Assembly: GCA_032718475.1 (NCBI GenBank)
Contig: JAUCBJ010007105.1
Coordinates: 15,234-79,233, forward strand
Length of the DNA stretch: 64,000 nucleotides
Origin: Nemertoderma westbladi
Taxonomy: Eukaryota > Animalia > Xenacoelomorpha
Direction: 5' to 3'
The notes below the pieces were generated by a model. That model was not told the DNA's origin. It did not search any database and saw only the letters and a program-made list of their open reading frames with translations. Shown piece by piece: positions 21,961 through 52,333 of the stretch (position 1 is its first letter; every line of letters starts with the position of its first letter). The position numbers and the translations under genes are program-made.

Positions 21961-22379
21961 GTAGTCTTTGTTAGTATTACCAATAATATGAGATATACAA
22001 CTGACAAATGAAAAAAAGTAGAATAAAATGAATAAATAATGACAATAAAATAGTAACTATTATATAAATTATTATTGTAGTTTATACTTATCCATGCAAC
22101 AATGTTGTCGTTCAAAAACAAAAATTAATTTGAAAAGCTGAAAAATAATTAAATATGTAAACTTAGAGATAAACTAGAAATCAAATATATAACCAAAGGA
22201 TGCTTATGTATTTATATTCCACTGTGTAGTGTGTATGATGAATTATTTCACTATAAGGTAGCATTTGTAGTTTAACTTTAACGTAAAAACTTTTGAAAAT
22301 CCGACGTATTTTGATTAAATTACAGTAATGTAATATGCCTATTCATATTTGTACACATAAAACCCTTAGGTACTCTCGT

Positions 22380-22447
22380 GGCGTAGTGGTCAGATGGTTA
22401 AGGCGTTGGTTACATTACGTAGGTTACGAGTTCGAATCCCAGTCGGG
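22380..22447 (+). promoter_or_regulatory. tRNA-like Pol III A/B-box module in the LTR (second copy 37296-37363)
   Basis: GTGGTCAGATGGTTAAGGCGTTGG resembles the D-arm region of tRNA-Ser/Leu; B box GAGTTCGAATCCC; no complete cloverleaf. Confidence 0.6.
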
Positions 22448-22494
22448 AAATTTGTATTTTGGGGCCATTTATTTTCGTGTGGTGCTAATTGGTA

Positions 22495-22740
22495 GGCCAA
22501 TGAGAAGCGTACAGCGTAGCGAATGATGAGCCAGGCCAATCATAGGGCATAAATTATCTTATTGCTCAAATGTGAGGCAGTGGAAAATTCTGTTAGGATT
22601 CCATGTCCCAGATTAGTGTAAGGGCTGGACTGCGTTGAACGATGAGCTGGGCCAATCATAGGGCACGAAGCACTTCATTGCTCAATTGTGAAGCTGTGGA
22701 AATTTCTGTTTAGTTTCCATGTGCAATTTCTAGTATAAAA
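22495..22740 (+). promoter_or_regulatory. LTR Pol II promoter: CCAAT boxes and TATA
   Basis: Three GGCCAAT sites, two within a ~115-bp direct repeat (ggccaatcatagggca...attgctcaa.tgtga.gc.gtggaaa.ttctgtt), then TATAAAA at 22734-22740. Confidence 0.7.
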
Positions 22741-25458
22741 GACCGGTTTGCCTTCGGTTATCACGTTATTATCACCTTATGTTATGTCACTTCTTAGCAC
22801 TTTGTAAAACTCTTACTTTAGTTTCCATTTAGTTTATTTCGGTTTCTTGTTGAAACTTTATTTGATAAATCCTTTTGTAAAACTGTAAATATACTGCAAT
22901 TTCCTGACATGTTTTCTTTTGGTCCGACTTCGGGACAGCCGAACACCAGGGAGATGGCAGCCTAGACCGTTAGGCCGTAAGCAACGCAGGGAAGGGATGT
23001 CCACAACACGCTAGCGCCCACATTTGGATTGACCGCGCACCCCCTTTGCCCCTTCGAAATGCTCAACTTGCTATGCAGCGCCCGCTTTGTGAGAAAGGTA
23101 AGACTTTGTTCGACGCCCTTGCCCGCCGTAAGACCTATAGATCAGGGTAAGCGTGACACCGCACTGGACGCCGCAAATTTAGGATCAAATAATTATATCC
23201 AGACACCCCCCCTTTGTCAAGTCCTACGAACCCCTGGGTTAACCTGTACTTCCTACAGGTGCGAACTATTGCCATTCGTCAGTACGCGAGTACATATTAG
23301 GTACGGACAGCATATGTTCCATAATTTAGTGAGTCGTAGCACTGACTGTTTGGTACCGGTTCGCTTTGTAGAATGTACATTAGTACCCCCCCCCCCCCCC
23401 CCCTGTCTGGAGTTAGCTATTTGATCAGGCAAGGAGCATTTCTGCTACCGGCACACTGCTTGGCCTAGGGAGGTTTATTAATATCCTACCGCGCCTTGCC
23501 ACGTACTGATAGGTATTGCTGCTAACTACCGCAGCAACAAAGTTCTAGAATTAAATTAGTATACCAGATCAGCTAACGTACGGTAGCGATTAACCCCTAT
23601 TCTTATCTTACAACCAGAATCTGGTATTAGTGCCGATCACGGGTGTAGTTACTAACACTGTGGTTGCCCATTGGGTTGTGGATAGGAAGGAGAGAGCTTT
23701 GACGTCATTCGTGAGTATAAAGTTCTACAAACGCGACTAGTTTATTTTAGTAGCTAGCGCACGGTATCATTTTAGTCAGAAAATCACTAAAACCTAGTAA
23801 AAGGAATTACACGAAATTGTTTTATTTGTAACACACCCACACACACACGCCCTAAAACATATCGCCCTTAAAGTTCTACTAGCTATAGCGTACTATACAT
23901 TACGTTAGGTGGAAATTATTTGTATTTGTAAAATTAGGATCTGATTTGATTGCGGCAAGATAAGGAGTATTTCACTTTCGTTATTAAACTGTTGTTTGTC
24001 TGGACAACGGTATTGTTACATTTAGGCCTGACCCTTTAGACTGATTTCGTACAGGGGGATCAGTTATCGTTACATTTAGGCACGACCCCTTTTCGACTGA
24101 TTTAGGACTGTCAGTGTTGTTACGCTAGGTCTGTTAACCCACTAGCTCGTATATAAACCATATAAATCACACCGCGGCAAGTTACTGTATTTAGGACTGT
24201 CAGTGATAGTTAGGATTCGCTGCGCGGGGATTGTTTTCCCGTGAGTTTGGTCTGTTACTGTAACTGTACATCTGCCTTACCGGTTAGAGGACAGGTATCC
24301 TTCTGTCTAGTACGTAGGCATTAGACCCGCTCACGTACATAGAATAGATACAAGGCTCTGTTCCTCGCCAGTAGTCGTTTGTGTACTATATCTGTTTGTT
24401 TAGATATCCTGGACTGGGATTTGTTGTCAGATACTGTACAAGCCCGTATACATTACTAGAGTCTCATAGTAAGATACATCGTTACTAGGATCTGGTAAGC
24501 GGTATACTACTGGACCCTTACAGTAGGAAGTATTTATATAAATTAGTATATATAGTATTTCCGCCGTAGCGTATAGTATAGTTTAGAATTGTTAGCTATT
24601 GAAAGTAGGAGATATTTAAAAATTTAAGGTTAGTAAATTTAGTAATTTAGAACGTCCCCTGCTTCAGTAGGCTTTTAGGGTAGCTAGTACTTTCGTATTT
24701 AATATTTGACTAGCTAACAGTTAGTTTGTAGCACTTTGTTTTACGCCGTGTGTGTGCGGTGTTACTTTTCGGTACTTGAAAAGGTACATAGGGTTTAAAG
24801 ACCAATTTGTATCGGTACCTAGGAAGATTTTTCGTAAGCGTAGAAGTAAAACTCTCACCTTCGACCTTTTCAGGACTCAAGGACTCATTTCTGGACCGCT
24901 TCGAGGATTAGACCGCTTTTCGCAAAGTTTGGGAGACAATAAATTCGTCCGCGCCGCCGAAAAACGGAAAGACCCACGTCCGGTTTGTATTTGGGAATTT
25001 GTACGACTGGAAGATCAAAGGAACGTAAGTTTTACGACTCGCGTCGTTCAAACTTAAGAAAGCACAGTAGTACTCAAAATTTGTGGGTTTCACTGTCTAT
25101 TTAGTAGTGTTGTTGGTACATATTTTCCCGTTAGACGTTGCTGTTTGGCCTATTGTTTATACTTGTTGATCTACATTTTGTTAACGTATACCGTTATCTC
25201 ACTTATTCGTACAAATTTAGCCGGTAGGCTAGATTACTACTTATTTTATTATATACCTTGTTAGTTTATTTGTACCGGTTAGGGTATATATATGATGTAT
25301 ATATATATCAAGGTAAGTTCGACATTTGTACATTTCGACATTTTGACATTTCGACATTCTGACTTGTTGATTTATTTGTACCGGTTAGGTAAGTTTGACA
25401 CTTCAACATTCAGACACTTTGACATTTTATTACCCGTACTTGACGTATATAATAAGAC

Positions 25459-28400
25459 ATGAGTGACACACCCCATTCGACGAGATACCCACCTACCGAC
25501 TATGACTCGTGCGACCCGGACAGATCGACAGTAGACGAACCGAGAAGGAGAACCCGAGATTCCACCGATGTCACACCGCTTGCGTCGCCGGTACCCCGAA
25601 CGGAAATACCGGAAACCGCAACGCGTGGCGACGGCAGAATCGAAGATTTCCTTACCGTCCCGCAGACTAGATCGCGGGAACCGGACATGGTAAGTTCGAC
25701 TGGGAGCCAGGAGAACGTTATTAGAAGTATAGGAGGACACATGGCCCAGATTACTCGAAACCTCGGAGAAGGTTTTCGCGTTTTACGCGAGTTAACCGCC
25801 CCGATGTCGAGATACGAGTTCTACACCTTACAGGTAAGGATAGAAAGTAGGGTACATGCCTCCGTAGATAAACTTAAAGGTTTGCACGAACTTGCAGAGT
25901 TGCGTGGCGACAACTTTACTCAGGTAACGATAGTAGATAAATTGGTAAGTGCGAGAGAAAGCCTTATCCAGTTTAAGTCGGTGATAAGATTGGCTCAACA
26001 GGAGCAGTTTGACCAACTGCTAGGTGAGTCAGTTTCGGACGCGTTGTTACAACCCGAAGAGGAAGAAGAACTCTACTGCCTGGACGGAAGGTTGGAAACG
26101 CTGACCAATTTTCTTCGTAGATGCGGCGTACCGATCGACGAACCGGAAGTCGAACCGCGAGGGACGACGGAAGTTCTCACTACGGAAGGCTCGCGAGCCT
26201 ACCAACATCCACCACTGGATAGATCGTTCGTTAGCGTACGGAGCGACGTTGGCAACGTTGGCGACGTTAGTAGAACAGCGTCTGGAATTACTCGACAACA
26301 ACAGGAGGTGGCACGCCGACAACAAGTCGCCGAGGAAGAAGCGCGACACCAGATGGCACAGATCGCCATCGAAGGAGAGAAACAACGTAGAGAAGACGAG
26401 GCAAGAATTGCACAACTCAAGGCGCAAGCTGAATTCGAAGCATCAGAAATGCGCAGACTGGAGGAGGACTTAGCACGGCAGAAGGCAGCATCCGACGCTC
26501 GTGCCAAGTTGGAGGCGCGGCAAATAAACGCTCGATTAGCTATACAGGAAGCGGAATTAGCGGCACAACAACAGGATGCAGATCGACGCGAAAGGGAGAT
26601 GCAACTACAGTTCGAATTGAATCGTAGATCGCGCGAGACAGCGAACGCGCAAGCGGACCTCGAACTCGACGCGAGAGATAGATCTATGAGATCGCGAACT
26701 GGACACGACTTGTCTGCCCTGGATCGTATGGAAGCTCGATATCGCGGAATACAGAAGCGGATCGAGGAAGGAAGCGTGGGAGCAATAGATCGAGGAGAGG
26801 AGTTCGTCGAGGATTACTGTAAACGTTTTCCCCAAGTTATTCCTATGCTCAAACCCACGACTCCGATAAAACCGGTCTTTGTTACGAAACCTAAGGAAAT
26901 AACGCCTGTGCGCCCGACGCAAGGTAGCAGGTTTGTTGTGACGGAAATACCGCAACCTAGGGCGACTTCATCGCCGATTCTCGCAGGTAACATAACTAGT
27001 CCACCTACTGTAAGCCGTAGTTTACTTGTGGAGAGAGACGAACCTGCGTTTATGACAGTAAAACAGGTGAGTAAACCATTGCAAGTTAAACCTGTGACGT
27101 GCTGCGCGAACCCAGTCATTTATAAACCTACAGTAGAACTTAACTCAGATGTTTTTACTAGACCTCTCACCCAATGTTTAACGAGACCTACGACTTCGTG
27201 GAAGGCTTGCGAGCCTACCGAACAACGAGGAGCCGTAGATCCCAGACCACGACGAACTCGACCAAGGATAATACGCCGGACGCGAACCCGCCAACCACCT
27301 TATCCGGACGACAGCGACTCATCTAGCGACTCGGAGTCGACGGAACGGGAAATATTCCGTACTGGAGCGGCAGCGGCAGCGGATTACAAACAGGAGGAAC
27401 GATCGACGAACCCATACATCGACAATCCACCTCGAGAAACACCCCAACAGAAACCCACGTTGCAACCAGCGGAAGCGATTAGCACCAACAGACTCGCCGA
27501 AATAATGCGACCTGTAGCGGACCGACTAGCTCAGATAGAAGAGCGACTCGAAGCGCAACCGTCGGATCGATCACGAACCAGCGTGGAATTGGAACAACCT
27601 AGACAACATCGACCACCGAGGAGAGAACAGGAGACTAGACGGACTCCGACACATCGAGAAGATGATCCCGTTAATAATTCCTACCGACGAACAACGCGCG
27701 GAAGGGAGCGACTGGACGACGCCACCGAACAGGGACGCGGACAGTTGGATTTAGTTAGCGAGATTGCGAAATTCGCGGCTAGACACGGATTACCGGCACA
27801 GCAACCGCCGAAGTTCTCTGGCAACGCGAAACACTGGCGCACACTGGTAGACTACGTAGAGTCCCAGATCGCTAAGTGTGCTTTCACCTCGACGGAGAAG
27901 TTTAACTACTTGCTCCAAGTTCTGTCTGGTGAGCCGAAACGATTAGCGGAAACCTTTATTGGTGTTCCCGATGCCTTTGAGTTGGCGTACGACCGTTTAT
28001 ATTCGATTTACGGCGGTAATGTCGCCATGGCTAAATCCATTATTGAAGACCTCTGCAGAGGAGGCAATATTTCGAGACCGATCGACCTTTTACGACTCGC
28101 GGACGAAATAAAGAACGCTATAGGGACTTTACGGTCCATTGGACAACTCGAGTACGCTAACGCACCGACGGTTCTCATTCGAATAATCGGTCGACTTCAC
28201 CATCGACTACGACGAGAATGGCGACGCATCGAGTACCAGCGCGAAGAGGCCGGAGGGTTATTAAAACACACCGATGTCTATCAACTTATTTCACGGGAGG
28301 CCGTGATCGAGACTCGATCGAACTATACCGATCACCATATCGCGGCGGAAGGGATAACTGTTTCTGCGCCGAATCGGACTAAACCTTTTCCGACGAACGC

Positions 28401-31400
28401 GAAGGCCGTTACTTACGCCACCCCTACTGAGACTTCTAAAGTTCTGACGCCTATCGGCACCACGCAGCCACGACAACAGTTGCCGGCGGACTTTGTGGGA
28501 TGCTCATACTGCGAGCGGAATGGCAGAAACCATAGCGGACATAAACTACGTGCATGTCGCGCTTTTAAAGAGTTAGGGATCGAGGAGAGGAGACTCCAAA
28601 TCCGATCTCTAGATTCCTGTTGGAGATGTATGAAGCCAGGACACGTCCGGAAGGATTGCCCGAGCGACGATACATGTTCTCTGTGTGGACGTAACCATGA
28701 CGCGTTGCTTCACACAACCAGTCATACTCCGACCAGACGCTTTCGACGAGAGCATCCAGATAAAGCGGCTAGATGCGACGCGCTTTATAAGGAGCGTGCG
28801 CCGCGCGAGATCCGTACCTTTTATACCGACTGTATGGATCAGTCAGGATCATCGGACGAGGACGAGGAGGAAGACGACACTTTCTACGTGCATGCAGGTG
28901 AGGAACAGCCATCGATAACGCTCCTCACACAGAACCAATTGAAAGGGTTTAGCGTGATTCCTATAAAGATTACCGGAACCCGAGGGAGCAAGCGCATATA
29001 CGCCATCTTAGACTCTGCGTCATCGCATAGCTATGTCGACGAACAAGTAGCTGACGTAGTTACGGACTTGAGTCAAGGTAAGACTGCTCAGTATACTGTA
29101 AGCAGCATGCATGGTAAGAGAGCGATCCCTGTGACAAGAGTAAAACTAACTTTAGACACTCTTCTTTCCAAAGCGGAACACAGCAAGGAGGAGCGCTCAT
29201 TACTTCCGGTAAGAAATTTGACCTTTGCAGCTACGAAGGACTTTAGTAACTTGCTCGGCCCTGTGCCAGAGCAATCTCCGGAAGATCGTAAGTATTTCCG
29301 ACACCTTGGAATACCGGAATGTCCTGTTAATTATCGTTCCATTGCGATGTTAATTGGGACAGACCAGTTTAACTTACATCAGGTATGGGAGACACGCCCA
29401 TCTGTTATTACAGCGGGCAACCCCTACGCATGTAGAACTCCCATAGGTTGGTATACTAGAGCACCAATACGTTCACTAGAGGTAAGTGACCAGGAGGACG
29501 ACGTTTTGAGTACGTGTAGTTTATTGACTAACACGATAGATAATTCTCCTTCACACTCCTGTGGTCCAATTGTACGGACGGCACTACGACAGACTTGCGT
29601 CACTAACGCAGACGCCACCGATACTGACGTAACCGATCTGGACACGACCATACGGACCTCTGACTTACAACTACTTGCAGTAGACCAGGTTGTATTGACT
29701 ACTGAAGACCTGAGGGTTGTTGCCGTGGATGACTCGATGAACGAGGATTTTGGAAGGCTTGTGAGCCTACCGAAAAATCCGAAGGTCATTGACCCCACCC
29801 ACCAGGCCTCGACACCGGTCGTTGATCTTGGAAGGCTTGCGAGCCTACCGATAGATCAAGAGGTTGTCAAACCGCCGCACGACAATTCGACGCCGACTAG
29901 TGACACCGGAAGGCTTGCGAGCCTACCAGACACATTGACACTAGCCACCGCAGCGGACGAAGACGTGGACGAGGACCATGGCGCAGTGCAAGCAGCGCTT
30001 GACCGACTGCTGACTGAACGGACCATACAATGGTTGGAACAGGACTCAGCAGAACCCGGTAGTTACGAGACCGCTATGTCAGAACAGGAAAAACGGTCAT
30101 TAAATATTATGAGAGATACCATTCGCCAGACCGCGAATGGCCACTATGAGGTTGGTATGTTGTGGCGCAATGGACAACCAAAGCTCGTTAACAATTACCC
30201 GCTTGCTTTGAGGCGACTCAAATCAATAAGGCAGCGATTGTTGCGAGACGAGATGGCCCATATGCAATACAATACACAACTTCAGACGTATCTCCAAAAG
30301 GGATACGCCATTAGGATGCTAAATCCTGAGGTAACTACAGAACAGACATATTACCTGCCACATCATTTTGTTCGACACCCGGACAAACCTGGCAAGGTGC
30401 GTGTAGTCAACGACTGCGCTGCGCTTTACCAAGGGATGTCTATGAATAGCGAACTGATGGACGGGCCGAATATGAATAATTACCTCATGGGAGTCCTAAT
30501 GCGTTTTAGACAACGCAAAGTGGCTTTCACCTGTGACGTAGAGGCCATGTTTCACCAGGTTAAGGCTTTGGAGCGGGACAGGGACAGTTTAAGGTTTCTT
30601 TGGTATCCGGACGGAAATTTACAACTTCCGCCAGAAACTTACCAAATGCAGGTAAGAGTATTTGGAGCCAGGGACAGCCCCAACTGCACCATGTACGCAT
30701 TAAAGCAGACAGCATTGGACAGACGAGACCAATTTGACCCAGAAGTAGTTCGGACCGTGGAACGAGATTTCTACGTGGATGACGGCCTCAAGAGTTGTGA
30801 CACCTTGGAGCGCGCTACAACCGTAGCACACCAACTCCAGGATTGTCTCGCTGAGGGCGGATTTCACCTGACGAAGTTCGCTTCCAACGAACCCGAACTG
30901 GTGAACTCATTTGACCCGACGGATCGTAGCGGAGGTGATTTAGACTTAGACCTAGAACCACTGCCGACGACCAAAGTATTAGGACTTAGTTGGGACCCTA
31001 ACACCGACAATTTTAGGGTACGTGTAAGGTCCAACGACCAGACTAGACCTCTCACTAAGAGGACTTGCTTATCGACCATGAGTCGATTGTATGACCCATT
31101 GTGTTTCATTAGTCCAGTGATCCTACATGCTAGGATCATACTCCGCAGCATTTGGCAAGCCGGACTGGAATGGGACGATCCCATCCCAGAAAAGTTAGCT
31201 GAGCGATGGAGGGACTGGGAAGCCCAACTGACGTTCCTACAAGACTATACCATACCGAGGGTATACTTTCCTTTGCAAACCACCTTTCCTGCCGATTTAG
31301 AGCTTCACAGCTTTAGTGACGCTAGCAAGGATGGATTGGGGGTTACATTATACCTTAGACGACAAGTGACATCGGACAGCTACGATGTATCTCTCGTTAC

Positions 31401-32391
31401 TTCAAGAGCTAGAACAATGCCATTGAAGTATATGACTGTACCTCGTGGGGAGCTGCAAGCCGGGACGATATCCACCGATATTGTCAGTCTAGTTCAACGC
31501 GAGCTGGAGGCTAACTTGAAGGTCACATATTGGACGGATGCGACGTTGGTACTTTGGTACATAAACAACGAAACATTCGAGTTCAAGACTTTCGTAGCCA
31601 ACAGACGGGCTGAAATACTAGACCGGTCGCTCAAACAAGATTGGCGTCACTGTCCAGGGAAGCTGAACCCAGCTGACATCGCGTCACGGGGGATGCAACC
31701 ACTTGACTTTTGTAAACCGGACAATAAATCCTTTTGGTTTAGAGGACCCGATTTCCTACAGCGACCATCAGACGAATGGCCACCGTTATTCGACGCGACA
31801 ACCAACACCATACCAGAGGGTGCCGAGATAAAACTCGACAAGGTTGTCAAGTCTAAAGCGAAAGCCAACGCCAAGGTCAAGAGGAAAAAAGGACGGACGA
31901 AATCTGATGACCTGGACGCCAGACCTGACATTACGCCAGACGTCTCGCCAGACACTCGACCAGACGCTTGTACGAATCCTTCGCCGGATGTTCCGCGGGA
32001 GATTTCACCAGACGTTTCGCCGGATTGTTCACCAGATTACTCGCCAGATTATTCACCAGAAGAGATACCAGATTGTTCTCCGGATTGTTCGCCAGATTGT
32101 TTGATGGAACTCTCGACAGAATGTCTACCGGACGTCTCACCAGACTGTTCACCAGACATCTCGACCGACTGTCCACCAGACTTTGAACCAGACTTTCTGA
32201 CGGAAGTTACGCTAGACAGACTTTGGGACCGACGACCGGACATTTCGCCGGATGTTCCGCGCTATGTCTCACCAGACGTCTCACCAGACTGTTCACCAGA
32301 CGCTTCGCCAGACTGTCTACTAGACACTCCATTAGAAGACCCATTGGAGCGGACTTTTAGAGACGTACCTAAAGAGGTGAGGTCTCTATAG
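25459..32391 (+). CDS. BEL/Pao Gag-protease-RT-RNase H polyprotein without integrase (2310 aa)
   Basis: Coiled coil, PPKFSGN, three Cys/His knuckles (CWRCMKPGHVRKDC, CSLCGRNHDALLH), AILDSAS protease, YYLPHH, FYVDDGL, HSFSDAS, PRGELQA, YWTDA, NPADIASRG; uninterrupted. Confidence 0.95.
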   Translation: MSDTPHSTRYPPTDYDSCDPDRSTVDEPRRRTRDSTDVTPLASPVPRTEIPETATRGDGRIEDFLTVPQTRSREPDMVSSTGSQENVIRSIGGHMAQITRNLGEGFRVLRELTAPMSRYEFYTLQVRIESRVHASVDKLKGLHELAELRGDNFTQVTIVDKLVSARESLIQFKSVIRLAQQEQFDQLLGESVSDALLQPEEEEELYCLDGRLETLTNFLRRCGVPIDEPEVEPRGTTEVLTTEGSRAYQHPPLDRSFVSVRSDVGNVGDVSRTASGITRQQQEVARRQQVAEEEARHQMAQIAIEGEKQRREDEARIAQLKAQAEFEASEMRRLEEDLARQKAASDARAKLEARQINARLAIQEAELAAQQQDADRREREMQLQFELNRRSRETANAQADLELDARDRSMRSRTGHDLSALDRMEARYRGIQKRIEEGSVGAIDRGEEFVEDYCKRFPQVIPMLKPTTPIKPVFVTKPKEITPVRPTQGSRFVVTEIPQPRATSSPILAGNITSPPTVSRSLLVERDEPAFMTVKQVSKPLQVKPVTCCANPVIYKPTVELNSDVFTRPLTQCLTRPTTSWKACEPTEQRGAVDPRPRRTRPRIIRRTRTRQPPYPDDSDSSSDSESTEREIFRTGAAAAADYKQEERSTNPYIDNPPRETPQQKPTLQPAEAISTNRLAEIMRPVADRLAQIEERLEAQPSDRSRTSVELEQPRQHRPPRREQETRRTPTHREDDPVNNSYRRTTRGRERLDDATEQGRGQLDLVSEIAKFAARHGLPAQQPPKFSGNAKHWRTLVDYVESQIAKCAFTSTEKFNYLLQVLSGEPKRLAETFIGVPDAFELAYDRLYSIYGGNVAMAKSIIEDLCRGGNISRPIDLLRLADEIKNAIGTLRSIGQLEYANAPTVLIRIIGRLHHRLRREWRRIEYQREEAGGLLKHTDVYQLISREAVIETRSNYTDHHIAAEGITVSAPNRTKPFPTNAKAVTYATPTETSKVLTPIGTTQPRQQLPADFVGCSYCERNGRNHSGHKLRACRAFKELGIEERRLQIRSLDSCWRCMKPGHVRKDCPSDDTCSLCGRNHDALLHTTSHTPTRRFRREHPDKAARCDALYKERAPREIRTFYTDCMDQSGSSDEDEEEDDTFYVHAGEEQPSITLLTQNQLKGFSVIPIKITGTRGSKRIYAILDSASSHSYVDEQVADVVTDLSQGKTAQYTVSSMHGKRAIPVTRVKLTLDTLLSKAEHSKEERSLLPVRNLTFAATKDFSNLLGPVPEQSPEDRKYFRHLGIPECPVNYRSIAMLIGTDQFNLHQVWETRPSVITAGNPYACRTPIGWYTRAPIRSLEVSDQEDDVLSTCSLLTNTIDNSPSHSCGPIVRTALRQTCVTNADATDTDVTDLDTTIRTSDLQLLAVDQVVLTTEDLRVVAVDDSMNEDFGRLVSLPKNPKVIDPTHQASTPVVDLGRLASLPIDQEVVKPPHDNSTPTSDTGRLASLPDTLTLATAADEDVDEDHGAVQAALDRLLTERTIQWLEQDSAEPGSYETAMSEQEKRSLNIMRDTIRQTANGHYEVGMLWRNGQPKLVNNYPLALRRLKSIRQRLLRDEMAHMQYNTQLQTYLQKGYAIRMLNPEVTTEQTYYLPHHFVRHPDKPGKVRVVNDCAALYQGMSMNSELMDGPNMNNYLMGVLMRFRQRKVAFTCDVEAMFHQVKALERDRDSLRFLWYPDGNLQLPPETYQMQVRVFGARDSPNCTMYALKQTALDRRDQFDPEVVRTVERDFYVDDGLKSCDTLERATTVAHQLQDCLAEGGFHLTKFASNEPELVNSFDPTDRSGGDLDLDLEPLPTTKVLGLSWDPNTDNFRVRVRSNDQTRPLTKRTCLSTMSRLYDPLCFISPVILHARIILRSIWQAGLEWDDPIPEKLAERWRDWEAQLTFLQDYTIPRVYFPLQTTFPADLELHSFSDASKDGLGVTLYLRRQVTSDSYDVSLVTSRARTMPLKYMTVPRGELQAGTISTDIVSLVQRELEANLKVTYWTDATLVLWYINNETFEFKTFVANRRAEILDRSLKQDWRHCPGKLNPADIASRGMQPLDFCKPDNKSFWFRGPDFLQRPSDEWPPLFDATTNTIPEGAEIKLDKVVKSKAKANAKVKRKKGRTKSDDLDARPDITPDVSPDTRPDACTNPSPDVPREISPDVSPDCSPDYSPDYSPEEIPDCSPDCSPDCLMELSTECLPDVSPDCSPDISTDCPPDFEPDFLTEVTLDRLWDRRPDISPDVPRYVSPDVSPDCSPDASPDCLLDTPLEDPLERTFRDVPKEVRSL
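29740..29930 (+). repeat. Three 78-bp-spaced repeats in the PR-RT linker, each carrying the hairpin motif
   Basis: Motif starts at 29752, 29830 and 29908 (GRLxSLP). Confidence 0.9.
31924..32320 (+). repeat. 12-bp coding repeat (PDxS)n at the polyprotein C-terminus
   Basis: PDVS/PDCS/PDYS/PDIS/PDAS units. Confidence 0.9.
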
Positions 32392-33594
32392 GGGTGCGTC
32401 TAACAGGCGGCGGCAGACTCGTGAGGGTCTGGGGGCACGCTAAATCTAAATATAGTGCTAGGGAGTCACTGAAGGCCCTCGTGTCTAACGAACCATGAAT
32501 TGCCATGGTGCCGTGGTACCGTCTAGTCGGCCTGTTGCCGTACTGCCAGTCCTGTACACAGTAGGGGTGGTGGCATGGCGTGATTTGTGGTTCATGTGGT
32601 GTGAACTATGTTTTGTATGTGGGCGATCAGTGGCAGTTTGCTTGGGGCTTGGATGGTTCCATTGACCGTCAGCTGTTCCGTTTTTTTGATACTATATGTT
32701 ATTGTCTCCATGTTCAGTTGATTGGTCTTTGGTGGCATTGGAAAAACCGTCGGGTCTTGAGTTTTCTGTTGCTGTGGGTACGTGAGTACACGTGATTGTA
32801 TGTGTGGCCACTGCGAGTGGGTATGGGAACCCTTGCCAGTTGGACAAGACGCCGCTGGTATTAGTAGGACCATATCTCTACTGCGCCCCAGCATACTTTG
32901 TGCACACAAAGTTATTTTACCCTGTCAGTAAAATAAGGTACTCTCGACTTGGTGGTTGGTCGATACAATTTGTCCCCTCTGATTTGTCTTTCTCGATTTT
33001 GACCCCGATTTTGTCTTTCCCGATTTTGTCTTCTGTGTGTGCATGGTATGTGTCAGATTTTGTGTTTACCGTAGTGTACTTGATTTCGTGAACATCTGTT
33101 GAGTACACGTGTACAGGACGGGTAAGTGGTTACTTGTTCCTAGCTTTCGAGCTAGTCAGTATTGTTGAGGAACGGTGTCCCTTCAATACTGCCGGCGAGG
33201 CAGGTGAAAACGTGTCAATATTCCATGTTGGGTAGCGCAAGCCCACGTGGGACAAGACCGTCGGTTAGGCCCAAGGGCGACCTTGGTGCTCGATCGCTAT
33301 CGACTGGTCCACCTGCCGGTTGACTCTTTGTTATACTTTGAGTTGGCTCAATGTACAGTCAGGCCACAGTAAGTTGACAGTAGCCGCCCATCTGGCTACA
33401 CGTTCGACGAGCTGTGCTGGTGTGATCGGGGGACCGAAAACAGAACCCGGGAAGCATCGGGCCACCCTGCGGCCCGGTTATGTCTAAACGACTGATAGAA
33501 ATGTCAGTCGGACTGGCCCCCAGGGTGGTGGAAACACGTCCGCCTTAGTGGGTGCGCCTCGGGGAGGAGCCCAGAAGGACGAAAGTGACCAAAT
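32392..33594 (+). other. Non-coding, hairpin-rich spacer between RNase H and integrase ORFs (candidate structured cis-acting RNA)
   Basis: Stops in the frames checked; stems capped by GTGA (32414-32431), TTCG (33140-33155), GCGA (33271-33286) and GAAA (33489-33510). Confidence 0.6.
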
Positions 33595-35412
33595 TTGACT
33601 TCTTTGGACGACAGAGTTGTGGCCACAGGGATTACACTCCGCTCGAAGAAGGTACTTGACTTACCTACAGGTAAAGTGGTGACTAAGGTTAGGAAGCTTA
33701 CAGGCTCACAGGAACACACTGACACTGTAGAGTTGAAACCATTACTGCCAGTCGACACATTAGGTGCGGACGGCAAAGGTAAGACCGTAGAGATTGACGT
33801 ACTTGGGGACTCAGACAAACCTACCGGAAGGCCCGTGGGCCTACCAAGTCCAGACAAGTATCCACACTACGACTACACCTTACCCGATGACGTCACTAAC
33901 ACTTACGTTGACAGGATAGTGAACCTAACTAGATCATGGACTGACGCGTGCCGCAAGTTAGCATGGCTCAAACGATTGAGACAATATGCCAGAGGCAAAC
34001 GCGACTTTCCTAGAAGACTTACCTTAAAGGAAATTGAACACTGTGAAGTTGATATCATTCGACATTATCAATTGCGATATTTCGCACGAGAGTTCACAGC
34101 GATCAAACAAGGTAAACAGATTAAGTCTTCACCGATTTTGAGTTGGAGTCCGATTATTTACCGGGGCTTACTTTGTCACAAGTCCAGACTCCAAAACATC
34201 GACTTTGCACTTGACTTTAGGTATCCTATCATCATACCGCAACACCATGAGTTACAGCGCGCTATGATACTGGACGCACATGTACAACTCAAACACGTAG
34301 GTAGACACCACTGTCTATCATACTTACGCTCGAGGTTTGTACTGATTAGACCTAGTAAGGCACTGAGTTCAGTAACACGGAACTGTATTATTTGTAAGAA
34401 GGTGCACGCGAGGATAGGACACCAAGAAATGAGTGAACTACCATTAGCTAGATTACAGGCATTTAGACCCCCTTTCACTGAGACAGGGATAGACTGTTTT
34501 GGACCCATAATCGCGAAACGCGGAAGGGTACAGGTAAAACGTTGGGGATTGATCTTCACTTGCATGGCCAGCAGAGCTGTCCATATAGAGCGAGTGACAG
34601 ACTTGTCCACCAATGCCTTTATCCTAGCCTTACGGCGATTTATCGCTAGACGTGGATTGGTCAAATCCATATACTGCGACCAAGGGACAAACTTTGTGGG
34701 TGCACGGAACGAGATAACCAGAGCTTTGAGAAAATTGGACCAAAACCAGATTTCCGAGGAACTACGTCCTCACCGTATTGTTTGGTTTTTCAACACTCCA
34801 GACAGTCCGTGGAGAGGCGGCGTTTGGGAAAGGCTGATTGGCTCAATAAAGACAGCTATGGCTAAAGTAGTACCGACGCAACACATCTTGACAGACGACC
34901 AACTGACGACGTTACTAATAGAAATCGAAGCAATCTTAAATACCAGACCGATCGCTTTGATCCCAGACAATAACGACGTACGGTTTGCCTTGACACCAGC
35001 GCACCTGCTTATGCAGGCGCCGACGACATTGTTGCCCATTTCGGTACCCGTTGATAGTGACGGATACGGCAACAAGGCTTGGAAAATCACTCTATTACTT
35101 GCAAATAAATTCTGGGAAATATGGCAGAAATATTATTTGCCCTCTATTTCGACCAGAACCTCTTGGTATCTAAATACCCGATGTTTAAGACGTGGTGACC
35201 ATGTCTTATTGGCTGAAGCTAATCTGAGAAGACGGTTTTGGCTGACTGGAGTCATTTTGACCACGCACCCTACATCTGGTGTAGTGAGGACAGTTACTGT
35301 ACGGACTATCGACGGACGTACCGTAGATAGGCCTGTACAACGTCTCGTACTCCTTGAGGAGACTAGAAACGAGACGGGAGACTACAAATCTCCACCCAAT
35401 ATTAGTAAATAG
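33595..35412 (+). CDS. Separate BEL/Pao integrase ORF (true start unknown; first ATG at 34264)
   Basis: H..H...CxxC (HVQLKH...CIICKK), GIDCFGP, YCDQGTNFVG, GVWERLIGSIK, LNTRPI, LTPAHLL, GVVRTVTV, RPVQRL; catalytic D-D-E intact. Confidence 0.93.
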   Translation: MTSLDDRVVATGITLRSKKVLDLPTGKVVTKVRKLTGSQEHTDTVELKPLLPVDTLGADGKGKTVEIDVLGDSDKPTGRPVGLPSPDKYPHYDYTLPDDVTNTYVDRIVNLTRSWTDACRKLAWLKRLRQYARGKRDFPRRLTLKEIEHCEVDIIRHYQLRYFAREFTAIKQGKQIKSSPILSWSPIIYRGLLCHKSRLQNIDFALDFRYPIIIPQHHELQRAMILDAHVQLKHVGRHHCLSYLRSRFVLIRPSKALSSVTRNCIICKKVHARIGHQEMSELPLARLQAFRPPFTETGIDCFGPIIAKRGRVQVKRWGLIFTCMASRAVHIERVTDLSTNAFILALRRFIARRGLVKSIYCDQGTNFVGARNEITRALRKLDQNQISEELRPHRIVWFFNTPDSPWRGGVWERLIGSIKTAMAKVVPTQHILTDDQLTTLLIEIEAILNTRPIALIPDNNDVRFALTPAHLLMQAPTTLLPISVPVDSDGYGNKAWKITLLLANKFWEIWQKYYLPSISTRTSWYLNTRCLRRGDHVLLAEANLRRRFWLTGVILTTHPTSGVVRTVTVRTIDGRTVDRPVQRLVLLEETRNETGDYKSPPNISK

Positions 35413-36201
35413 ATGTGGGACCTTGGTTGGCCGCCACATAGACCTACTGTATTTTAGTTATTTGTATTTGTATTACTGTACGTGCATTTGTAATCCTCTT
35501 CACTGTAGATAGAGACAGCGGTGGAATTCCATTGTCTTTATACGTGAACATGGAGGGTAGTACCCTTATGTATCACATAGGAGCGGGATTGTGTGTACAG
35601 TAGGAATGGAATTCCACTTGGAACCCACAAGTGAGACAATTTTTCAAAAATTATTAGACAAATCCATTTGTTTGGATTTAAATTTAAGAAAAACGATTCT
35701 CCAGTGAAAGCAAATTCTAGAATACAGCTAGATAAAATTAAAATTGGGGAGGACAAGAGCGGATGGAAGGCTTGCGAGCCTACCGATAAATTTTTTTTGG
35801 AAAAAGAAAATCGGCCTTGTTCTACGTAGTCGTGTCTACTATTATTTTGACCAATTAATTCTCGACTGCACTATTTTCTTGGGAAACGTAGTTTGGGAAA
35901 TTAAAAGGTGAGTATTTTAGACTCGCGGCTAGTTTACCCGGAATTCGTTTTTTATCGGCACATTTTTGGATTAGGAGCCAGTGCGAAATCACGCGAACCC
36001 GAAGTCATTAGGCAAAATGGGTTGGGGTTTAGAGCAGAGTTGAGCCAAAAGCCGACAAACTCTAAGTCACCTCACATCTAACCTCTGTTTGTGCTTCCTC
36101 TAGTAGAAACACTATTATCAAAGATCCACGCAGGAATAGGAGCACCAGGCGCCGTTCAACCGATATGGGGCCAAAACTTTAACCTGTTTGGAGTGGAGAG
36201 T

Positions 36202-36696
36202 ATGGCTAGGAGTACAGCCAAGCTTGCTAAATCCAAGGCGGATCCAAACGTCACGCGACAGCGATTGGACGCTTATAACAAAACAGCGGAGGAGTTACGC
36301 GCGGAGTTCAAAGCGTTGTACCCCTACGATGCGTTATGCGACGCCAGCGACGTTTGCGAGAACCCCGAGCTGATATTAGCCAAACCACCAAAGTCTGCGT
36401 TACCAAGAAGGCGGTCGTTTCATCTCCCGTCGTCCCCTTTCCTAGCGTTTTGGAACCACCGACAACTCGACGCCGAAGTCCGAGCCCAGTTCGACCTCGA
36501 CCACCACCCAATCGCAATAGAGGACGTGGACGAGCCCGCTCAGCGAAGGAATAGGAAGCGAGTGGAAGGAAGGCTTGCGAGCCTACCGATTTGGATATTA
36601 TATTTGGATATTATATTTGGGTATTTATATCGGACGTTGGGTTTGGAAGAACGAGATATGGAAAGGAAGGCTTGCGAGCCTACCGTTAGCAATTGA
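36202..36696 (+). CDS. Additional 3' ORF of unknown function (~164 aa from the ATG)
   Basis: ATG in good context (agtATGG); GC-rich coding-like island between AT-rich UTR segments; hydrophobic stretch near the C-terminus. Confidence 0.5.
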   Translation: MARSTAKLAKSKADPNVTRQRLDAYNKTAEELRAEFKALYPYDALCDASDVCENPELILAKPPKSALPRRRSFHLPSSPFLAFWNHRQLDAEVRAQFDLDHHPIAIEDVDEPAQRRNRKRVEGRLASLPIWILYLDIIFGYLYRTLGLEERDMERKACEPTVSN

Positions 36697-37151
36697 TGCT
36701 CAGGAGAATATATCCAGACCAGCAGGACGAACTTTTCAGTTCGTCAGGAGGACATTATTGAAAGTTATTAGCGCATTATGTTTATATTAAATTTGGACTG
36801 ATTTAATTTGGTGAAGGTTTATTATGTATATTTACAATATATAAAGATTTATCGAAAGAGTTTGATTTATTTGTTCGATTTGTTTGATTTATTTGTTCTG
36901 ATTTGTTTATTTGCTTATATTGATAACCGAAAGCCTTTTTTTTGTATTTTAGGCACTAAAGTTAATTCGTAAATTTGTATTTGTATGTACGATCGATTGT
37001 ATTTACGCCGTATCTGCAATATTAAGTATGCAATGATTAGATAGTGATTATATTTTATATTTTAGGCCCTACCAGTAAATTTAGAAATAGTTTGTAGATA
37101 TTTTATATTTGATTGGTGAAAACAGTCTTACTTACTGTTTTCATGGAGCGG

Positions 37152-39454
37152 TGATGAATTATTTCACTATAAGGTAGCATTTGTAGTTTAACTTTAACGT
37201 AAAAACTTTTGAAAATCCGACGTATTTGGATTAAATTACAGTAATGTAATATGCCTATTCATATTTGTACACATAAAACCCTTAGGTACTCTCGTGGCGT
37301 AGTGGTCAGATGGTTAAGGCGTTGGTTACATTACGTAGGTTACGAGTTCGAATCCCAGTCGGGAAATTTGTATTTTGGGGCCATTTATTTTCGTGTGGTG
37401 CTAATTGGTAGGCCAATGAGAAGCGTACAGCGTAGCGAATGATGAGCCAGGCCAATCATAGGGCATAAATTATCTTATTGCTCAAATGTGAGGCAGTGGA
37501 AAATTCTGTTAGGATTCCATGTCCCAGATTAGTGTAAGGGCTGGACTGCGTTGAACGATGAGCTGGGCCAATCATAGGGCACGAAGCACTTCATTGCTCA
37601 ATTGTGAAGCTGTGGAAATTTCTGTTTAGTTTCCATGTGCAATTTCTAGTATAAAAGGCCGGTTTGCCTTCGGTTATCACGTTATTATCACCTTATGTTA
37701 TGTCACTTCTTAGCACTTTGTAAAACTCTTACTTTAGTTTCCATTTAGTTTATTTCGGTTTCTTGTTGAAACTTTATTTGATAAATCCTTTTGTAAAACT
37801 GTAAATATACTGCAATTTCCTGACATGTTTTCTTTTGGTCCGACTTCGGGACAGCCGAACACCAGGGAGATGGCAGCCTAGACCGTTAGGCCGTAAGCAA
37901 CGCAGGGAAGGGATGTCCACAACACGCTAGCGCCCACATTTGGATTGACCGCGCACCCCCTTTGCCCCTTCGAAATGCTCAACTTGCTATGCAGCGCCCG
38001 CTTTGTGAGAAAGGTAAGACTTTGTTCGACGCCCTTGCCCGCCGTAAGACCTATAGATCAGGGTAAGCGTGACACCGCACTGGACGCCGCAAATTTAGGA
38101 TCAAATAATTATATCCAGACACCCCCCCTTTGTCAAGTCCTACGAACCCCTGGGTTAACCTGTACTTCCTACAGGTGCGAACTATTGCCATTCGTCAGTA
38201 CGCGAGTACATATTAGGTACGGACAGCATATGTTCCATAATTTAGTGAGTCGTAGCACTGACTGTTTGGTACCGGTTCGCTTTGTAGAACGTACATTAGT
38301 ACCCCCCCCCCCCCCCCCCCCTGTCTGGAGTTAGCTATTTGATCAGGCAAGGAGCATTTCTGCTACCGGCACACTGCTTGGCCTAGGGAGGTTTATTAAT
38401 ATCCTACCGCGCCTTGCCACGTACTGATAGGTATTGCTGCTAACTACCGCAGCAACAAAGTTCTAGAATTAAATTAGTATACCAGATCAGCTAACGTACG
38501 GTAGCGATTAACCCTTATTCTTATCTTACAACCAGAATCTGGTATTAGTGCCGATCACGGGTGTAGTTACTAACACTGTGGTTGCCCATTGGGTTGTGGA
38601 TAGGAAGGAGAGAGCTTTGACGTCATTCGTGAGTATAAAGTTCTACAAACGCGACTAGTTTATTTTAGTAGCTAGCGCACGGTATCATTTTAGTCAGAAA
38701 ATCACTAAAACCTAGTAAAAGGAATTACACGAAATTGTTTTATTTGTAACACACCCACACACACACACCCACACACACACGCCCTAAAACATATCGCCCT
38801 TAAAGTTCTACTAGCTATAGCGTACTATACATTACGTTAGGTGGAAATTATTTGTATTTGTAAAATTAGGATCTGATTTGATTGCGGCAAGATAAGGAGT
38901 ATTTCACTTTCGTTATTAAACTGTTGTTTGTCTGGACAACGGTATTGTTACATTTAGGCCTGACCCTTTAGACTGATTTCGTACAGGGGGATCAGTTATC
39001 GTTACATTTAGGCACGACCCCTTTTCGACTGATTTAGGACTGTCAGTGTTGTTACGCTAGGTCTGTTAACCCACTAGCTCGTATATAAACCATATAAATC
39101 ACACCGCGGCAAGTTACTGTATTTAGGACTGTCAGTGATAGTTAGGATTCGCTGCGCGGGGATTGTTTTCCCGTGAGTTTGGTCTGTTACTGTAACTGTA
39201 CATCTGCCTCACCGGTTAGAGGACAGGTATCCTTCTGTCTAGTACGTAGGCATTAGACCCGCTCACGTACATAGAATAGATACAAGGCTCTGTTCCTCGC
39301 CAGTAGTCGTTTGTGTACTATATCTGTTTGTTTAGATATCCTGGACTGGGATTTGTTGTCAGATACTGTACAAGCCCGTATACATTACTAGAGTCTCATA
39401 GTAAGATACATCGTTACTAGGATCTGGTAAGCGGTATACTACTGGACCCTTACA
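37152..39454 (+). repeat. 3' LTR (2303 bp)
   Basis: Preceded by a short purine-rich GGAGCGG (PPT-like) and followed by TSD GTGTA. Confidence 0.96.
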
Positions 39455-50042: not shown

Positions 50043-50399
50043 TTAACTGATATTGCATCACTAGAGCTAATGCCCGAAGAAATCTGTAAACCGGAAGTAA
50101 AGAAGTTTTGGCTTCATAGACCAGACTTTCTACAACGATCGTCACTTCAATGTCCATCGTTATTTGACGCTGCTTCCAACAGTATTCCTAAGGAGGCCGT
50201 GATAAAAACAAACTCCACTGTGGAATCAAAGGAGAAAGCTAAGGTAAGCAAAAAACCGGTCGTTCCGCCAGACTGTCCACCAGATTTTCCACCAGTCTTT
50301 CCACCAGATTTTCCACCAGAAACCTCGCCGTATACGTCTCAAGACGTGTCACTGCACATTTCGCTGGATGTTCCGCGAGATGTTTCTCTTCATGTGTAA
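50043..50399 (+). pseudogene. Fragment of a diverged relative of BEL element 1 (RNase H end plus PDxP repeats)
   Basis: DIAS..LMPEEICKPEVKKFWLHRPDFLQRSS...LFDAASNSIPKEAVIK aligns to DIASRGMQPLDFCKPDNKSFWFRGPDFLQRPS...LFDATTNTIPEGAEIK. Confidence 0.85.
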
Positions 50400-50638
50400 A
50401 GAACTTGTCCAGTTGGCTAAGGAATGGTCGAGGGCTGAAGTTTGGAATTCCTATGATTTGGAGGGAGCAACAAAATCATGTCACTGATTGCTACTTCTGC
50501 ATGGTTCCTCTCATAGCTGGTCACAACAAGAAAACCAAGAAATCTCTTGTGTATCCAAAAGTTCCGTCTGTGATACTTCCAGTAGAGCACTGTGACCAGA
50601 TTCCAGTGCCAGTTCCTATTAGTATCAGTTCCTATTAA
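50400..50638 (+). pseudogene. Chapaev3-like transposase N-terminal fragment
   Basis: FGIPMIWREQQNHVTDCYFCM...YPKVPSVILPVEH motif. Confidence 0.65.
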
Positions 50639-51566
50639 GGAAACTGACGATTCAACAACTGGAACTGACGACGTTTATCATATAGTTGTATATTTTTAGG
50701 TTCATTGTCATTGTCAAAGTAATATAATATAATATAAAATGTAAAATAATTTGTTCTAATAATTAAGGACCTCATAACAGGAAAAATATATCAGCCCAAT
50801 AATTGGTAAGCAGAATATAAATAGGTCAAATTAACAATATATCAGAGGTCACATAAACTTGTTTTGCAACCGACCCATATACTATATTCCACGAATTTAT
50901 GTCAGTTGGTCATGCCGTACCTTCAATGGCTTTAATTAAGTGATGAAATTCCTCCATTATGTAATCTCCTCCCAGGAGACAATGTGCGTGACATTGCCTC
51001 GGTTTGTCTGATGTGTTCCAGAATATTGTCTGTCAAGCGAAGATGTTGGGTGAGATAATATGATGAGATCATCTGATAGGTTGGATGTCTCATGATTGAT
51101 GAAAATTTCACCATGGCTGCCATATTCTTTCTTACCCCAATGTTCGCGGTATTTCAACTTTTCATAACGCGAGTTGAATATTTTTGTATTTTATTTAAAA
51201 TTGATTATTCCGATATTACTACTGGGTGCGGGACCATGGGTTTTGGGCACATTCAATAAACTGGGGGCGATTTATGGGCGAACTTTGGGGCAACTTACAG
51301 GGTACGGGAATAATTTCATAGTTATAAGGGCCAGGGGGGATGGAAAATGCAAGCAGTATTCAGGTTAGCCTGAGTACTATTAGGCCCTGGCCAACTTCCT
51401 GCTGCCTGTAGGGGTGGATTTGGTAATGCGCCAGGCCTAAAGGACAAGGACTGCCCTTAGCGGTCCCTGGCCAACAGCAGCCATTACGAGACTGAAAAGA
51501 ACTCGGACCGCTGACTGCTTGTGTCAGGGATTTGCGACGGGCACCGACGGCCCCTTAGTAGCCAAG

Positions 51567-52333
51567 CCGTTCTGGTTCTCGATGATCGAACCCCGGGGTT
51601 CGTGAGGGGTGGAGCGGACACGCGAACAGGTGGCCAACTAACGACTGCCCCCTGACCTAAGCCGTACTGGTTCTCGATGACCGATCCCTTCGGGGTTCGT
51701 GAGGGGTGGGACGGACATGCGAAAGGGCTGGCCACAGGACAGGTTTGACAAGGACTGCCCTTAGCGGTCTCTGGTCAACGGCAGCTACTACGAGCCTGAA
51801 AAGAACTCGGAACGCTGACTGCTTGTACTGGGATTTGCGACGGGAACCGACGACAGACCCCTTAGCCAAGCCGTTCTGGTTCTCGATGATCGTTCCCTTC
51901 GGGGTTCGTGAGGGGTGGAGCGGACACGCGATGGGGTCGAAAGACAAAGGACTAGACTCGACTAGACTCTACTGGCCTACCGACTGTTCGGAGCAGTTTC
52001 TCGGCTGCCGAAGCGACTACGAGCCTGAAACGGACTCGGAAAGCCTAGGTGGTTGGGTTTCTGTGACGAACCGACGGACCCCTAGCCAAGCCGTTCTGGT
52101 TCTCGATGATCGAACCCTTCGGGGTTCGTGAGGGGTGGAACGGACACGCGAACGGGTCCACCGACACGACAGACTCCTAGCCAAGCCGTACTGGTTCTCG
52201 ATGACCGAACCCTTCGGGGTTCGTGAGGGGTGGTACGGATACGCGACAGAGTCTACCGACTGGACCGACCCTTAGCCAAGCCGTGCTGGTTCTCGATGAC
52301 CGTTCCCTTCGGGGTTCGTGAGGGGTAGAACGG
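51567..52333 (+). repeat. Six ~53-nt structured repeats (kink-turn-like plus cUUCGg hairpin)
   Basis: CCGTTCTGGTTCTC-GAT-GA-Y-CGAACCC-TTCG-GGGTTCG-T-GA-GGGGTGGAACGG at 51567, 51662, 51871, 52091, 52186 and 52281. Confidence 0.85.

What the first reader, a model, noticed from the sequence alone, without database searches (positions are those of the whole stretch)
32392..33594. Split pol: a tetraloop-rich 1.2-kb spacer precedes an AUG-less integrase ORF (IRES-like dicistronic retrotransposon?)
Established: BEL/Pao elements normally encode integrase in the same ORF as RT-RNase H, as element 2 does here. Seen: in this young element both ORFs are intact but separated by a TAG and 1.2 kb of non-coding sequence with no evident TSD or TE ends. 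The spacer holds CAGACTC-GTGA-GGGTCTG (32414), TTATTTTAC/GTAAAATAA (32912), CTAGCT-TTCG-AGCTAG (33140), CAGTATTG/CAATACTG (33157-33191), CCAAGG-GCGA-CCTTGG (33271), CGGGCC/GGCCCG (33458) and CGACTGATA-GAAA-TGTCAGTCG (33489). Four of these have GNRA or UUCG loops on the sense strand. The integrase frame opens at 33589 and has no ATG until 34264, downstream of conserved pre-integrase sequence. Inference: integrase is expressed by internal non-AUG initiation, by splicing (donor-like GAG|GTGAGG at 32376/7, though I found no convincing in-phase acceptor) or by another recoding event.
Basis: partly seen in the sequence, partly recalled or inferred. Interest (0 to 1): 0.85.

Follow-up and report, generated by a model that had tools for sequence, protein, structure and literature searches.

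The report
Self-splicing intron inside an animal retrotransposon
A young jumping gene, in what is probably an animal genome, has its enzyme gene interrupted by a group I intron related to those of giant viruses and fungal mitochondria; the intron likely cuts itself out of the RNA so that integrase is made, which would be the first such intron I could find reported in an LTR retrotransposon.

Summary
The split is real, but the spacer is not an IRES. It is a 1,221-nt group I intron (32367-33587) in the RNase H-integrase linker of a young BEL/Pao element. DNA runs from three studies hold copies lacking exactly this in-frame segment. Of four possible registers, one gives the group I ends U|...G|. 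The 3' half holds a complete P3-P8 core. A covariance model built only from viral homologs scores it 104.9 bits (E 2e-25; next 8.9), and the helices covary. The guide sequence sits where homologs have theirs and pairs with this exon through a U-G wobble. Homologs interrupt large-DNA-virus genes and fungal-type cob/cox1, which points to subgroup ID. Rfam misses the family. The TAG and the AUG-less integrase frame are by-products of the intron ends. Splicing itself is inferred: no RNA evidence was obtained, and this copy has a bulge in P4. Reviews place nuclear group I introns in rDNA, with protist-virus and shark-ITS exceptions. My searches found none in LTR retrotransposons.

The parts
22236..24522 (+). 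5' LTR of the BEL/Pao element (TG..CA; 5-bp TSD GTGTA)
25456..32366 (+). Exon 1 of gag-pol: Gag, protease region, RT, RNase H, then a K-rich and Ser-Pro-Asp repeat linker; ends in U32366, codon phase 2
32367..33587 (+). Group I intron, 1,221 nt (407 codons), ends in omega-G 33587
   Evidence: joint in three DNA runs; register test; covariance model
32361..32401 (+). P1: exon end and first intron bases 32361-32370 pair with internal guide 32392-32401; U32366 opposite G32396; 32393-32395 can also pair with the first three bases of exon 2 (P10)
   Evidence: a competing local hairpin 32358-32388 also puts U32366 opposite a G
32402..32545 (+). 5' peripheral domain homologous to viral introns (includes the GUGA-loop hairpin and a 42-nt motif at 32490-32531)
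32546..33099 (+). U-rich insertion with no homology to the viral introns and no endonuclease remnant
33140..33191 (+). Two hairpins before P3 (P2/P2.1-like; assignment by position, inferred)
33199..33361 (+). Catalytic core: P3 33199-206/33310-317; P4 33210-216/33256-261 (one bulged base); P5 33221-227/33246-252; P6 33262-266/33292-296; P6b 33271-286; P7 33300,33302-306/33356-361 with G33302-C33360 G-binding pair; P8 33318-326/33340-348
33362..33587 (+). P9 domain and extensions; part of it aligns with the viral introns; P9.0 candidate G33362 with U33586
33588..35412 (+). Exon 2: rest of the linker and integrase (H2C2, core, DUF5641)
37152..39454 (+). 3' LTR, 99.1% identical to the 5' LTR

Best explanation
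The spacer is a group I intron, likely of subgroup ID, sitting in frame in the RNase H-integrase linker of a BEL/Pao retrotransposon, and it is predicted to splice itself out of the element's RNA so that integrase is made as part of one polyprotein. Shown: intron fold, homology, boundaries, and DNA copies with and without the segment. Inferred: guanosine-initiated two-step splicing at U32366 and G33587; incomplete or slow splicing, so that unspliced RNA is also packaged and reverse-transcribed (this copy, LTRs 99.1% identical, carries the intron) while spliced RNA gives intron-less copies; arrival by horizontal transfer, most plausibly from a large DNA virus, through reverse splicing into element RNA followed by the element's own reverse transcription.
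For: Joint 32366 to 33588 (1,221 nt, multiple of three) in 3 of 4 runs laid in each, from three studies; one contig has about 350 and 166 nt on the two sides. Only 1 of 4 registers gives exon-U and intron-G. A group I core descriptor hits one site in 128 kb of both strands and 1 of 40,000 shuffles of the spacer. Model R1, built from 32 non-window cores, scores 33194-33364 at 104.9 bits, next best 8.9. On 33 cores, 96.2% of cells pair, 20 of 35 pairs show two-sided change, 0 of 500 shuffles reach this, slid controls pair 28-47%. A perfect 6-bp P1 forms at the homologous guide position in 28 of 41 introns, window included; shifted controls 0-1 of 41. Homologs interrupt capsid, polymerase and reductase genes of large DNA viruses and cob/cox1. 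None of the 29 listed substitutions inside the intron falls in the core (104 rows not shown).
Against: No RNA evidence of splicing was obtained. Intron-less copies could be never-invaded relatives rather than products of splicing. The window copy has a bulged base in P4, absent from all 24 viral matches found without using P4; public copies vary there. In plain folding P4, P6 and P8 have low pair probabilities (0.06-0.44), and the local hairpin beats the homology P1 by about 4 kcal/mol. Two guide positions (32398, 32399) differ in many public copies, and I could not see whether the exon changes with them. The descriptor was written, and relaxed once, after seeing this sequence. The tree does not place the window core with support. 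The joint has short sides (22 and 26 nt) in two of the three runs.
Confidence: 0.8

Rival explanations
1. The segment is a group I intron by descent but no longer splices. Intron-bearing copies make only Gag-RT-RNase H and are mobilised with integrase supplied by intron-less copies.
For: P4 bulge in this copy and a 550-nt foreign insertion; intron-less copies exist; no RNA evidence.
Against: All catalytic helices and junctions are intact and score as well as viral members. The guide matches this exon over 10 bp. Listed substitutions avoid the core while L8 tolerates deletions. ORF2 is open for 607 codons, though the copy is young.
Confidence: 0.14
2. The segment is removed or inserted by another route: an antisense spliceosomal intron (GT..AG on the minus strand in register +2) or a DNA element with a 3-bp target duplication.
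For: The joint has a 3-letter ambiguity, and one register reads GT..AG on the minus strand.
Against: The minus-strand donor is poor, and antisense splicing would not alter the packaged RNA (general knowledge). No terminal inverted repeats. The 3-letter repeat is what P1-extension and P10 pairing require. The homology to group I introns is on the plus strand.
Confidence: 0.03
3. One reading: the spacer is an IRES or recoding signal that starts integrase at a non-AUG codon.
For: No in-frame ATG before 34264; near-cognate codons exist early in ORF2; the 3' half folds well.
Against: No IRES family in Rfam. The structure is explained as a ribozyme core, and ORF2 opens exactly at the predicted 3' splice site.
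Confidence: 0.03

Closest known systems
Group ID introns of fungal mitochondria (cob_393, cox1_715; PMC7595605, first part and passages read; F. oxysporum cob ID1 intron self-splices in vitro, PMC10254303, passages read)
   Same: Loci L037 and L082 carry this core just before the cob exon that starts at codon 132 (numbering recalled), and L044 carries it in cox1. Those sites are published as ID. Large insertions lie 5' of the core in both.
   Different: Here the host is a nuclear retrotransposon gene and there is no homing endonuclease. I could not run the published ID model, so the subgroup is assigned through homologs.
Group I introns in genes of large eukaryotic DNA viruses (e.g. Faustovirus capsid gene, PMC6247863, passages read; viral loci L011-L110)
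   Same: Same core, 5' motif and part of the P9 domain; best core scores are to introns in iridovirus-like capsid genes (L012, L014; the name iridovirus for PDB 6ojn is recalled).
   Different: The viral homologs have 150-260 nt between guide and core against 806 here, and replicate as DNA, so splicing does not erase them.
Nuclear rDNA group I introns, IC1 and IE (PMC3679873, PMC8395846, passages read)
   Same: Self-splicing intron in a nuclear genome with a U-G pair in P1 and a G site in P7.
   Different: Those interrupt rRNA genes of microbial eukaryotes. This one interrupts a protein-coding retroelement gene, is of another subgroup and is probably in an animal.
IStrons (group I intron fused to an IS200/605 transposon; PMC4227781, search listing and start of abstract only)
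   Same: A group I intron tied to a mobile element.
   Different: In IStrons the transposon is inside the intron and moves it as DNA. Here the intron is inside the transposon gene and passes through reverse transcription.
Belpaoviridae / BEL-Pao LTR retrotransposons (PMC8742986, whole text read)
   Same: LTRs, Gag, RT, RNase H, integrase in that order; metazoan hosts.
   Different: [quoted passage not shown] This element is 17.2 kb with 2.3-kb LTRs and an interrupted pol.

Membership tests
Group I intron | P3-P7 pseudoknotted core with P4-P6 domain and P8 | tested here: met
Group I intron | G-binding site in P7 (G-C pair after a bulge) | tested here: met
   G33302-C33360 with bulged C33301; G-C in 33 of 33 aligned cores (partly by construction of the search patterns)
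Group I intron | U-G wobble at the 5' splice site in P1 | tested here: met
   U32366 opposite G32396 at the homologous guide position
Group I intron | Terminal omega-G and P10 | tested here: met
   G33587; three-pair P10 (read from the sequence)
Group I intron | Precise absence in intron-less alleles with an unbroken frame | tested here: met
Group I intron | Guanosine-dependent self-splicing of the RNA | not testable with these tools
   needs an in vitro assay or RNA reads
Group I intron | Match to Rfam RF00028 | tested here: not met
   Rfam also missed 20 of 20 viral homolog loci, so this is a limit of the model
Subgroup ID | Match to the GISSD ID model or P7 pattern | not testable with these tools
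   model not held; figures with the consensus not visible
Subgroup ID | Homologs at published ID sites (cob_393, cox1 near 715) | tested here: met
   codon numbering recalled
Mobile group I intron with homing endonuclease | Intron-encoded endonuclease | tested here: not met
   0 of 27 spacer frames of 35 aa or more hit Pfam
BEL/Pao (Belpaoviridae) | LTRs, TSD and Gag-PR-RT-RH-IN order with Pao-specific domains | tested here: met
BEL/Pao (Belpaoviridae) | tRNA primer-binding site right after the 5' LTR | tested here: inconclusive
   the bases after 24522 do not start with TGG; not pursued
Dicistrovirus-type IGR IRES | Rfam IRES match or pseudoknot abutting the first codon | tested here: not met
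   no Rfam hit; the structure is accounted for otherwise
DNA transposon | Terminal inverted repeats | tested here: not met

The most novel reading that the evidence does not exclude
A virus-derived group I ribozyme has colonised an active animal LTR retrotransposon family and uses it as its vehicle: it reverse-splices into element RNA, is copied by the element's reverse transcriptase, has reached more than one exon context, and persists because partial splicing divides the RNA into integrase-making message and intron-bearing genome.
Probability: 0.35. Interest if true: 0.95.

Novelty: new variant of a known kind. Interest (0 to 1): 0.87.

Why it matters
Reviews state that nuclear group I introns occur only in rRNA genes of microbial eukaryotes (PMC3679873, PMC8395846) and that in animals they are limited to basal lineages plus putative cases in five sharks (PMC10964413). 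A complete one in the pol gene of a multi-copy LTR retrotransposon would extend them to a protein-coding, polymerase II-type transcript in a probable animal nucleus. It also makes an old question testable: PMC3679873 says the full path of intron spread by reverse splicing, reverse transcription and integration has not been shown, and here the intron sits in an RNA that carries its own reverse transcriptase, with intron-plus and intron-minus copies side by side. It raises the puzzle of how an intron survives in an element that copies itself through RNA, and it suggests transfer of a ribozyme from large DNA viruses into an animal genome. In practice, this intron family is invisible to Rfam, so split retrotransposon genes elsewhere may hide more.

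Tried and rejected
No whole genome is held, so copies could be seen only through public contigs. No RNA holder was listed; the one run guessed to be RNA (X5) gave 41 contigs and no joint at this site, which is no evidence either way. Rfam gave nothing meaningful. The first descriptor missed the site because P8 has four G-U pairs; I relaxed that limit once. Protein searches found no close relative: at most 45% identity for RT-RNase H among 120 listed of 925 hits and 4 distant hits for the ORF2 start; lengths outside the searched ranges were not examined. The metagenome scan gave 10 distant BEL loci, none with the core. In prokaryote genomes the P7 pattern found 0 matches; the P4 pattern found 36, of which 4 scored above 100 bits, and these have viral capsid or RNA polymerase flanks. 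A group II reading (GUGYG start, domain V) did not fit the joint, judged by eye. The tree left the window core unplaced. High contig depth over the intron, 5' LTR and 3' region in run X4 may mean a derivative family or another insertion site, but summed contig depth is not copy number. The protein atlas was unreachable three times. A literature search for the core motifs as text found 0 papers. PMC11296320, PMC8208691 and PMC3118150 (term searches) added nothing.

Full report
Observation. The window holds a BEL/Pao element with LTRs at 22236-24522 and 37152-39454, 99.1% identical, and a 5-bp target duplication. ORF1 (25456-32391) carries the Gag and RT-RNase H domains and ORF2 (33589-35412) the integrase. 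They are in the same frame, with 17 in-frame stops between them and no in-frame ATG before 34264. Element 2 has RNase H and integrase in one ORF. The listed hairpins are all there, but folding energy alone does not single the spacer out: best z-scores are -3.3 and -3.05, and coding flanks reach -2.9 and -3.1.

Copies without the spacer. No genome is held. Eleven public runs were listed, six holding part of the element, none on record as RNA. Laying four runs on the element showed a joint from 32366 to 33588 that skips 1,221 nt in three DNA runs of three studies. A second lay on 32200-33760 showed it again in X4, X2 and X1, with 164, 22 and 26 letters on the short side, plus further intron-less variants in X1. 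1,221 is a multiple of three, and both ORF1's TAG and the stop before ORF2 depend on the skipped part. The joint can slide by three letters; only the first register has the exon ending in U and the skipped part ending in G, and no register has inverted repeats. Two other X1 joints link the spacer's 3' end to ORF2 sequence, so other copies carry it in the same context. Two X4 contigs show the spacer's end followed by letters unlike exon 2, a weak hint of another site.

The spacer is a group I intron. All helices P3 to P8 can be drawn at 33199-33361 with correct pairing and typical junctions. A descriptor for this core, relaxed once after a first miss, hits only this site on both strands of the window and 1 of 40,000 dinucleotide shuffles. 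An exact pattern from P7 and J8/7 found 21 loci among viral contigs; 21 of their 24 matches pass the full descriptor, many being near-copies. A P4 pattern found 79 loci, some the same places again. From 37 non-redundant cores I aligned 32, leaving out five long ones. With the window added, 96.2% of 1,155 cells pair, 20 of 35 pairs change on both sides, no shuffle of 500 reaches any measure, and slid partners pair 28-47%. P4, the first P6 pairs and most of P7 are invariant, partly because the patterns selected for them. A model built without the window scores it at 104.9 bits, E 2e-25, with the next hit at 8.9 bits; the five left-out cores score 62-110 bits and 0 of 10 distant BEL loci score at all. 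Rfam sees neither the window intron nor 20 viral loci.

Splice sites predicted independently. In the homologs, six bases just before a conserved landmark pair with the upstream exon: a perfect 6-bp P1 forms in 28 of 41 introns with a landmark, against 0-1 of 41 for ten shifted windows. In the window the same position gives a 10-bp P1 that puts G32396 opposite U32366, the place of the joint, and leaves three bases to pair with exon 2. That pairing explains the three-letter repeat. A local hairpin is about 4 kcal/mol more stable but also sets U32366 against a G. The 5' domain and part of the P9 domain align with viral introns; 32546-33099 does not and holds no endonuclease remnant.

Relatives. 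The homologs interrupt capsid, RNA polymerase, DNA polymerase, reductase and primase genes of large DNA viruses and fungal-type cob and cox1 genes with LAGLIDADG or GIY-YIG frames. Two sit at cob codon 131/132 (numbering recalled), a site published as subgroup ID (PMC7595605), and an F. oxysporum cob ID1 intron self-splices in vitro (PMC10254303; its one supplement gave labels only, figures not seen). Best core alignments are to introns in iridovirus-like capsid genes, but the tree places the window core without support, so a viral donor is inference. Four strong hits in prokaryote bins have viral flanks.

Host. BEL/Pao elements are described as metazoan (PMC8742986). All 19 organism-named hits among 120 listed for RT-RNase H are animals; of 6 organism-named hits for a neighbouring LINE, 4 are insects and 2 carry bacterial bin labels. 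An animal host is likely (about 0.9) but not shown by a host gene.

How it likely works. The intron folds in the element's transcript and splices by the standard two transesterifications (established for group I; not tested here), giving one Gag-Pol frame whose RNase H-to-integrase distance is 533 residues, against a median of 272 in 86 of 120 homologs and 285 in element 2. It sits in a long low-complexity linker that a degraded sister fragment at about 50100-50400 also has. Because this young copy carries the intron, unspliced RNA must sometimes be reverse-transcribed, or the intron re-inserts. Spliced RNA would give the intron-less copies, although these could also be never-invaded relatives. 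Against activity of this copy: a bulged base in P4 not seen in 24 viral matches, at a place where public copies vary, low pair probabilities for P4, P6 and P8 in plain folding, and guide positions that differ among copies without visible exon data. For activity of the family: none of 29 listed substitutions in the intron falls in the core, and deletions fall in loop L8 (104 substitution rows and 49 indel rows were not shown).

Novelty. PMC3679873 and PMC8395846 (passages) restrict nuclear group I introns to rRNA genes of microbial eukaryotes. Exceptions in print: polinton-like viruses in protist genomes (PMC12220804, passages) and putative cases in five sharks (PMC10964413, passages; the original paper, on nuclear ITS, was not read). 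PMC8393795 (passages) lists animal cases as mitochondrial. Searches (listings only; 27 of 33, 23 of 25, 15 of 19 and 25 of 79 shown where cut) returned no paper on a group I intron in an LTR retrotransposon; subscription journals are mostly outside the library. Earlier notes of this scan describe an IC1-type intron in a fungal telomeric retrotransposon; I did not check them, and they concern another host, element and subgroup. Verdict: a new member of a known intron class in a setting I could not find reported; identity as a group I intron about 0.97, active splicing about 0.8.

Noticed in passing
window 26184, 27200, 29752, 29830, 29908, 35765, 36568, 36665 (+): A 20-nt hairpin-like motif recurs at eight places through coding and non-coding parts of element 1 only (0 expected by chance); a possible packaging or protein-binding signal.
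   Followed up: partly
window 51449-52357: Six roughly 95-nt repeats upstream of element 2 fold into long hairpins, most with UUCG loops and tandem G-A motifs that recall a kink-turn (name recalled). No Rfam hit.
   Followed up: partly
window 50080-50400: Degraded fragment of a sister element with the RNase H end and the same Ser-Pro-Asp repeat linker; no intron core nearby.
   Followed up: partly
window 36082-36696: 204-codon open frame between integrase and the 3' LTR with no Pfam match; atlas unreachable.
   Followed up: partly
window about 22370-22450 and 37285-37365: A tRNA-like stretch with A-box and B-box look-alikes lies inside both LTRs (seen by eye; ARAGORN did not call it).
   Followed up: no
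L012, L020, L026, L032, L035, L043, L069, L070, L087, L090, L094: Eleven viral introns at one capsid-gene site have a G-C pair instead of the usual U-G wobble at the predicted 5' splice site.
   Followed up: partly
L016 (also L018, L023): Two related group I introns lie in tandem at the end of a capsid gene, separated by an exon of about 11 nt (read by eye).
   Followed up: no
L112, L126, L127, L145: Contigs in bacterial genome bins carry large-DNA-virus capsid or RNA polymerase genes with these introns, probably mis-binned viral DNA.
   Followed up: partly
run X4 on window 22236-23231, 32196-33689, 36180-37151: Contig depth is far higher over the LTR start, the intron and the 3' region than over gag-pol, which may mark a non-autonomous derivative that keeps the intron.
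   Followed up: no
run X8 on window 33340-33373: A run labelled as another organism matches only the P8-J8/7-P7 stretch with two short contigs; the source of that intron is unknown.
   Followed up: no
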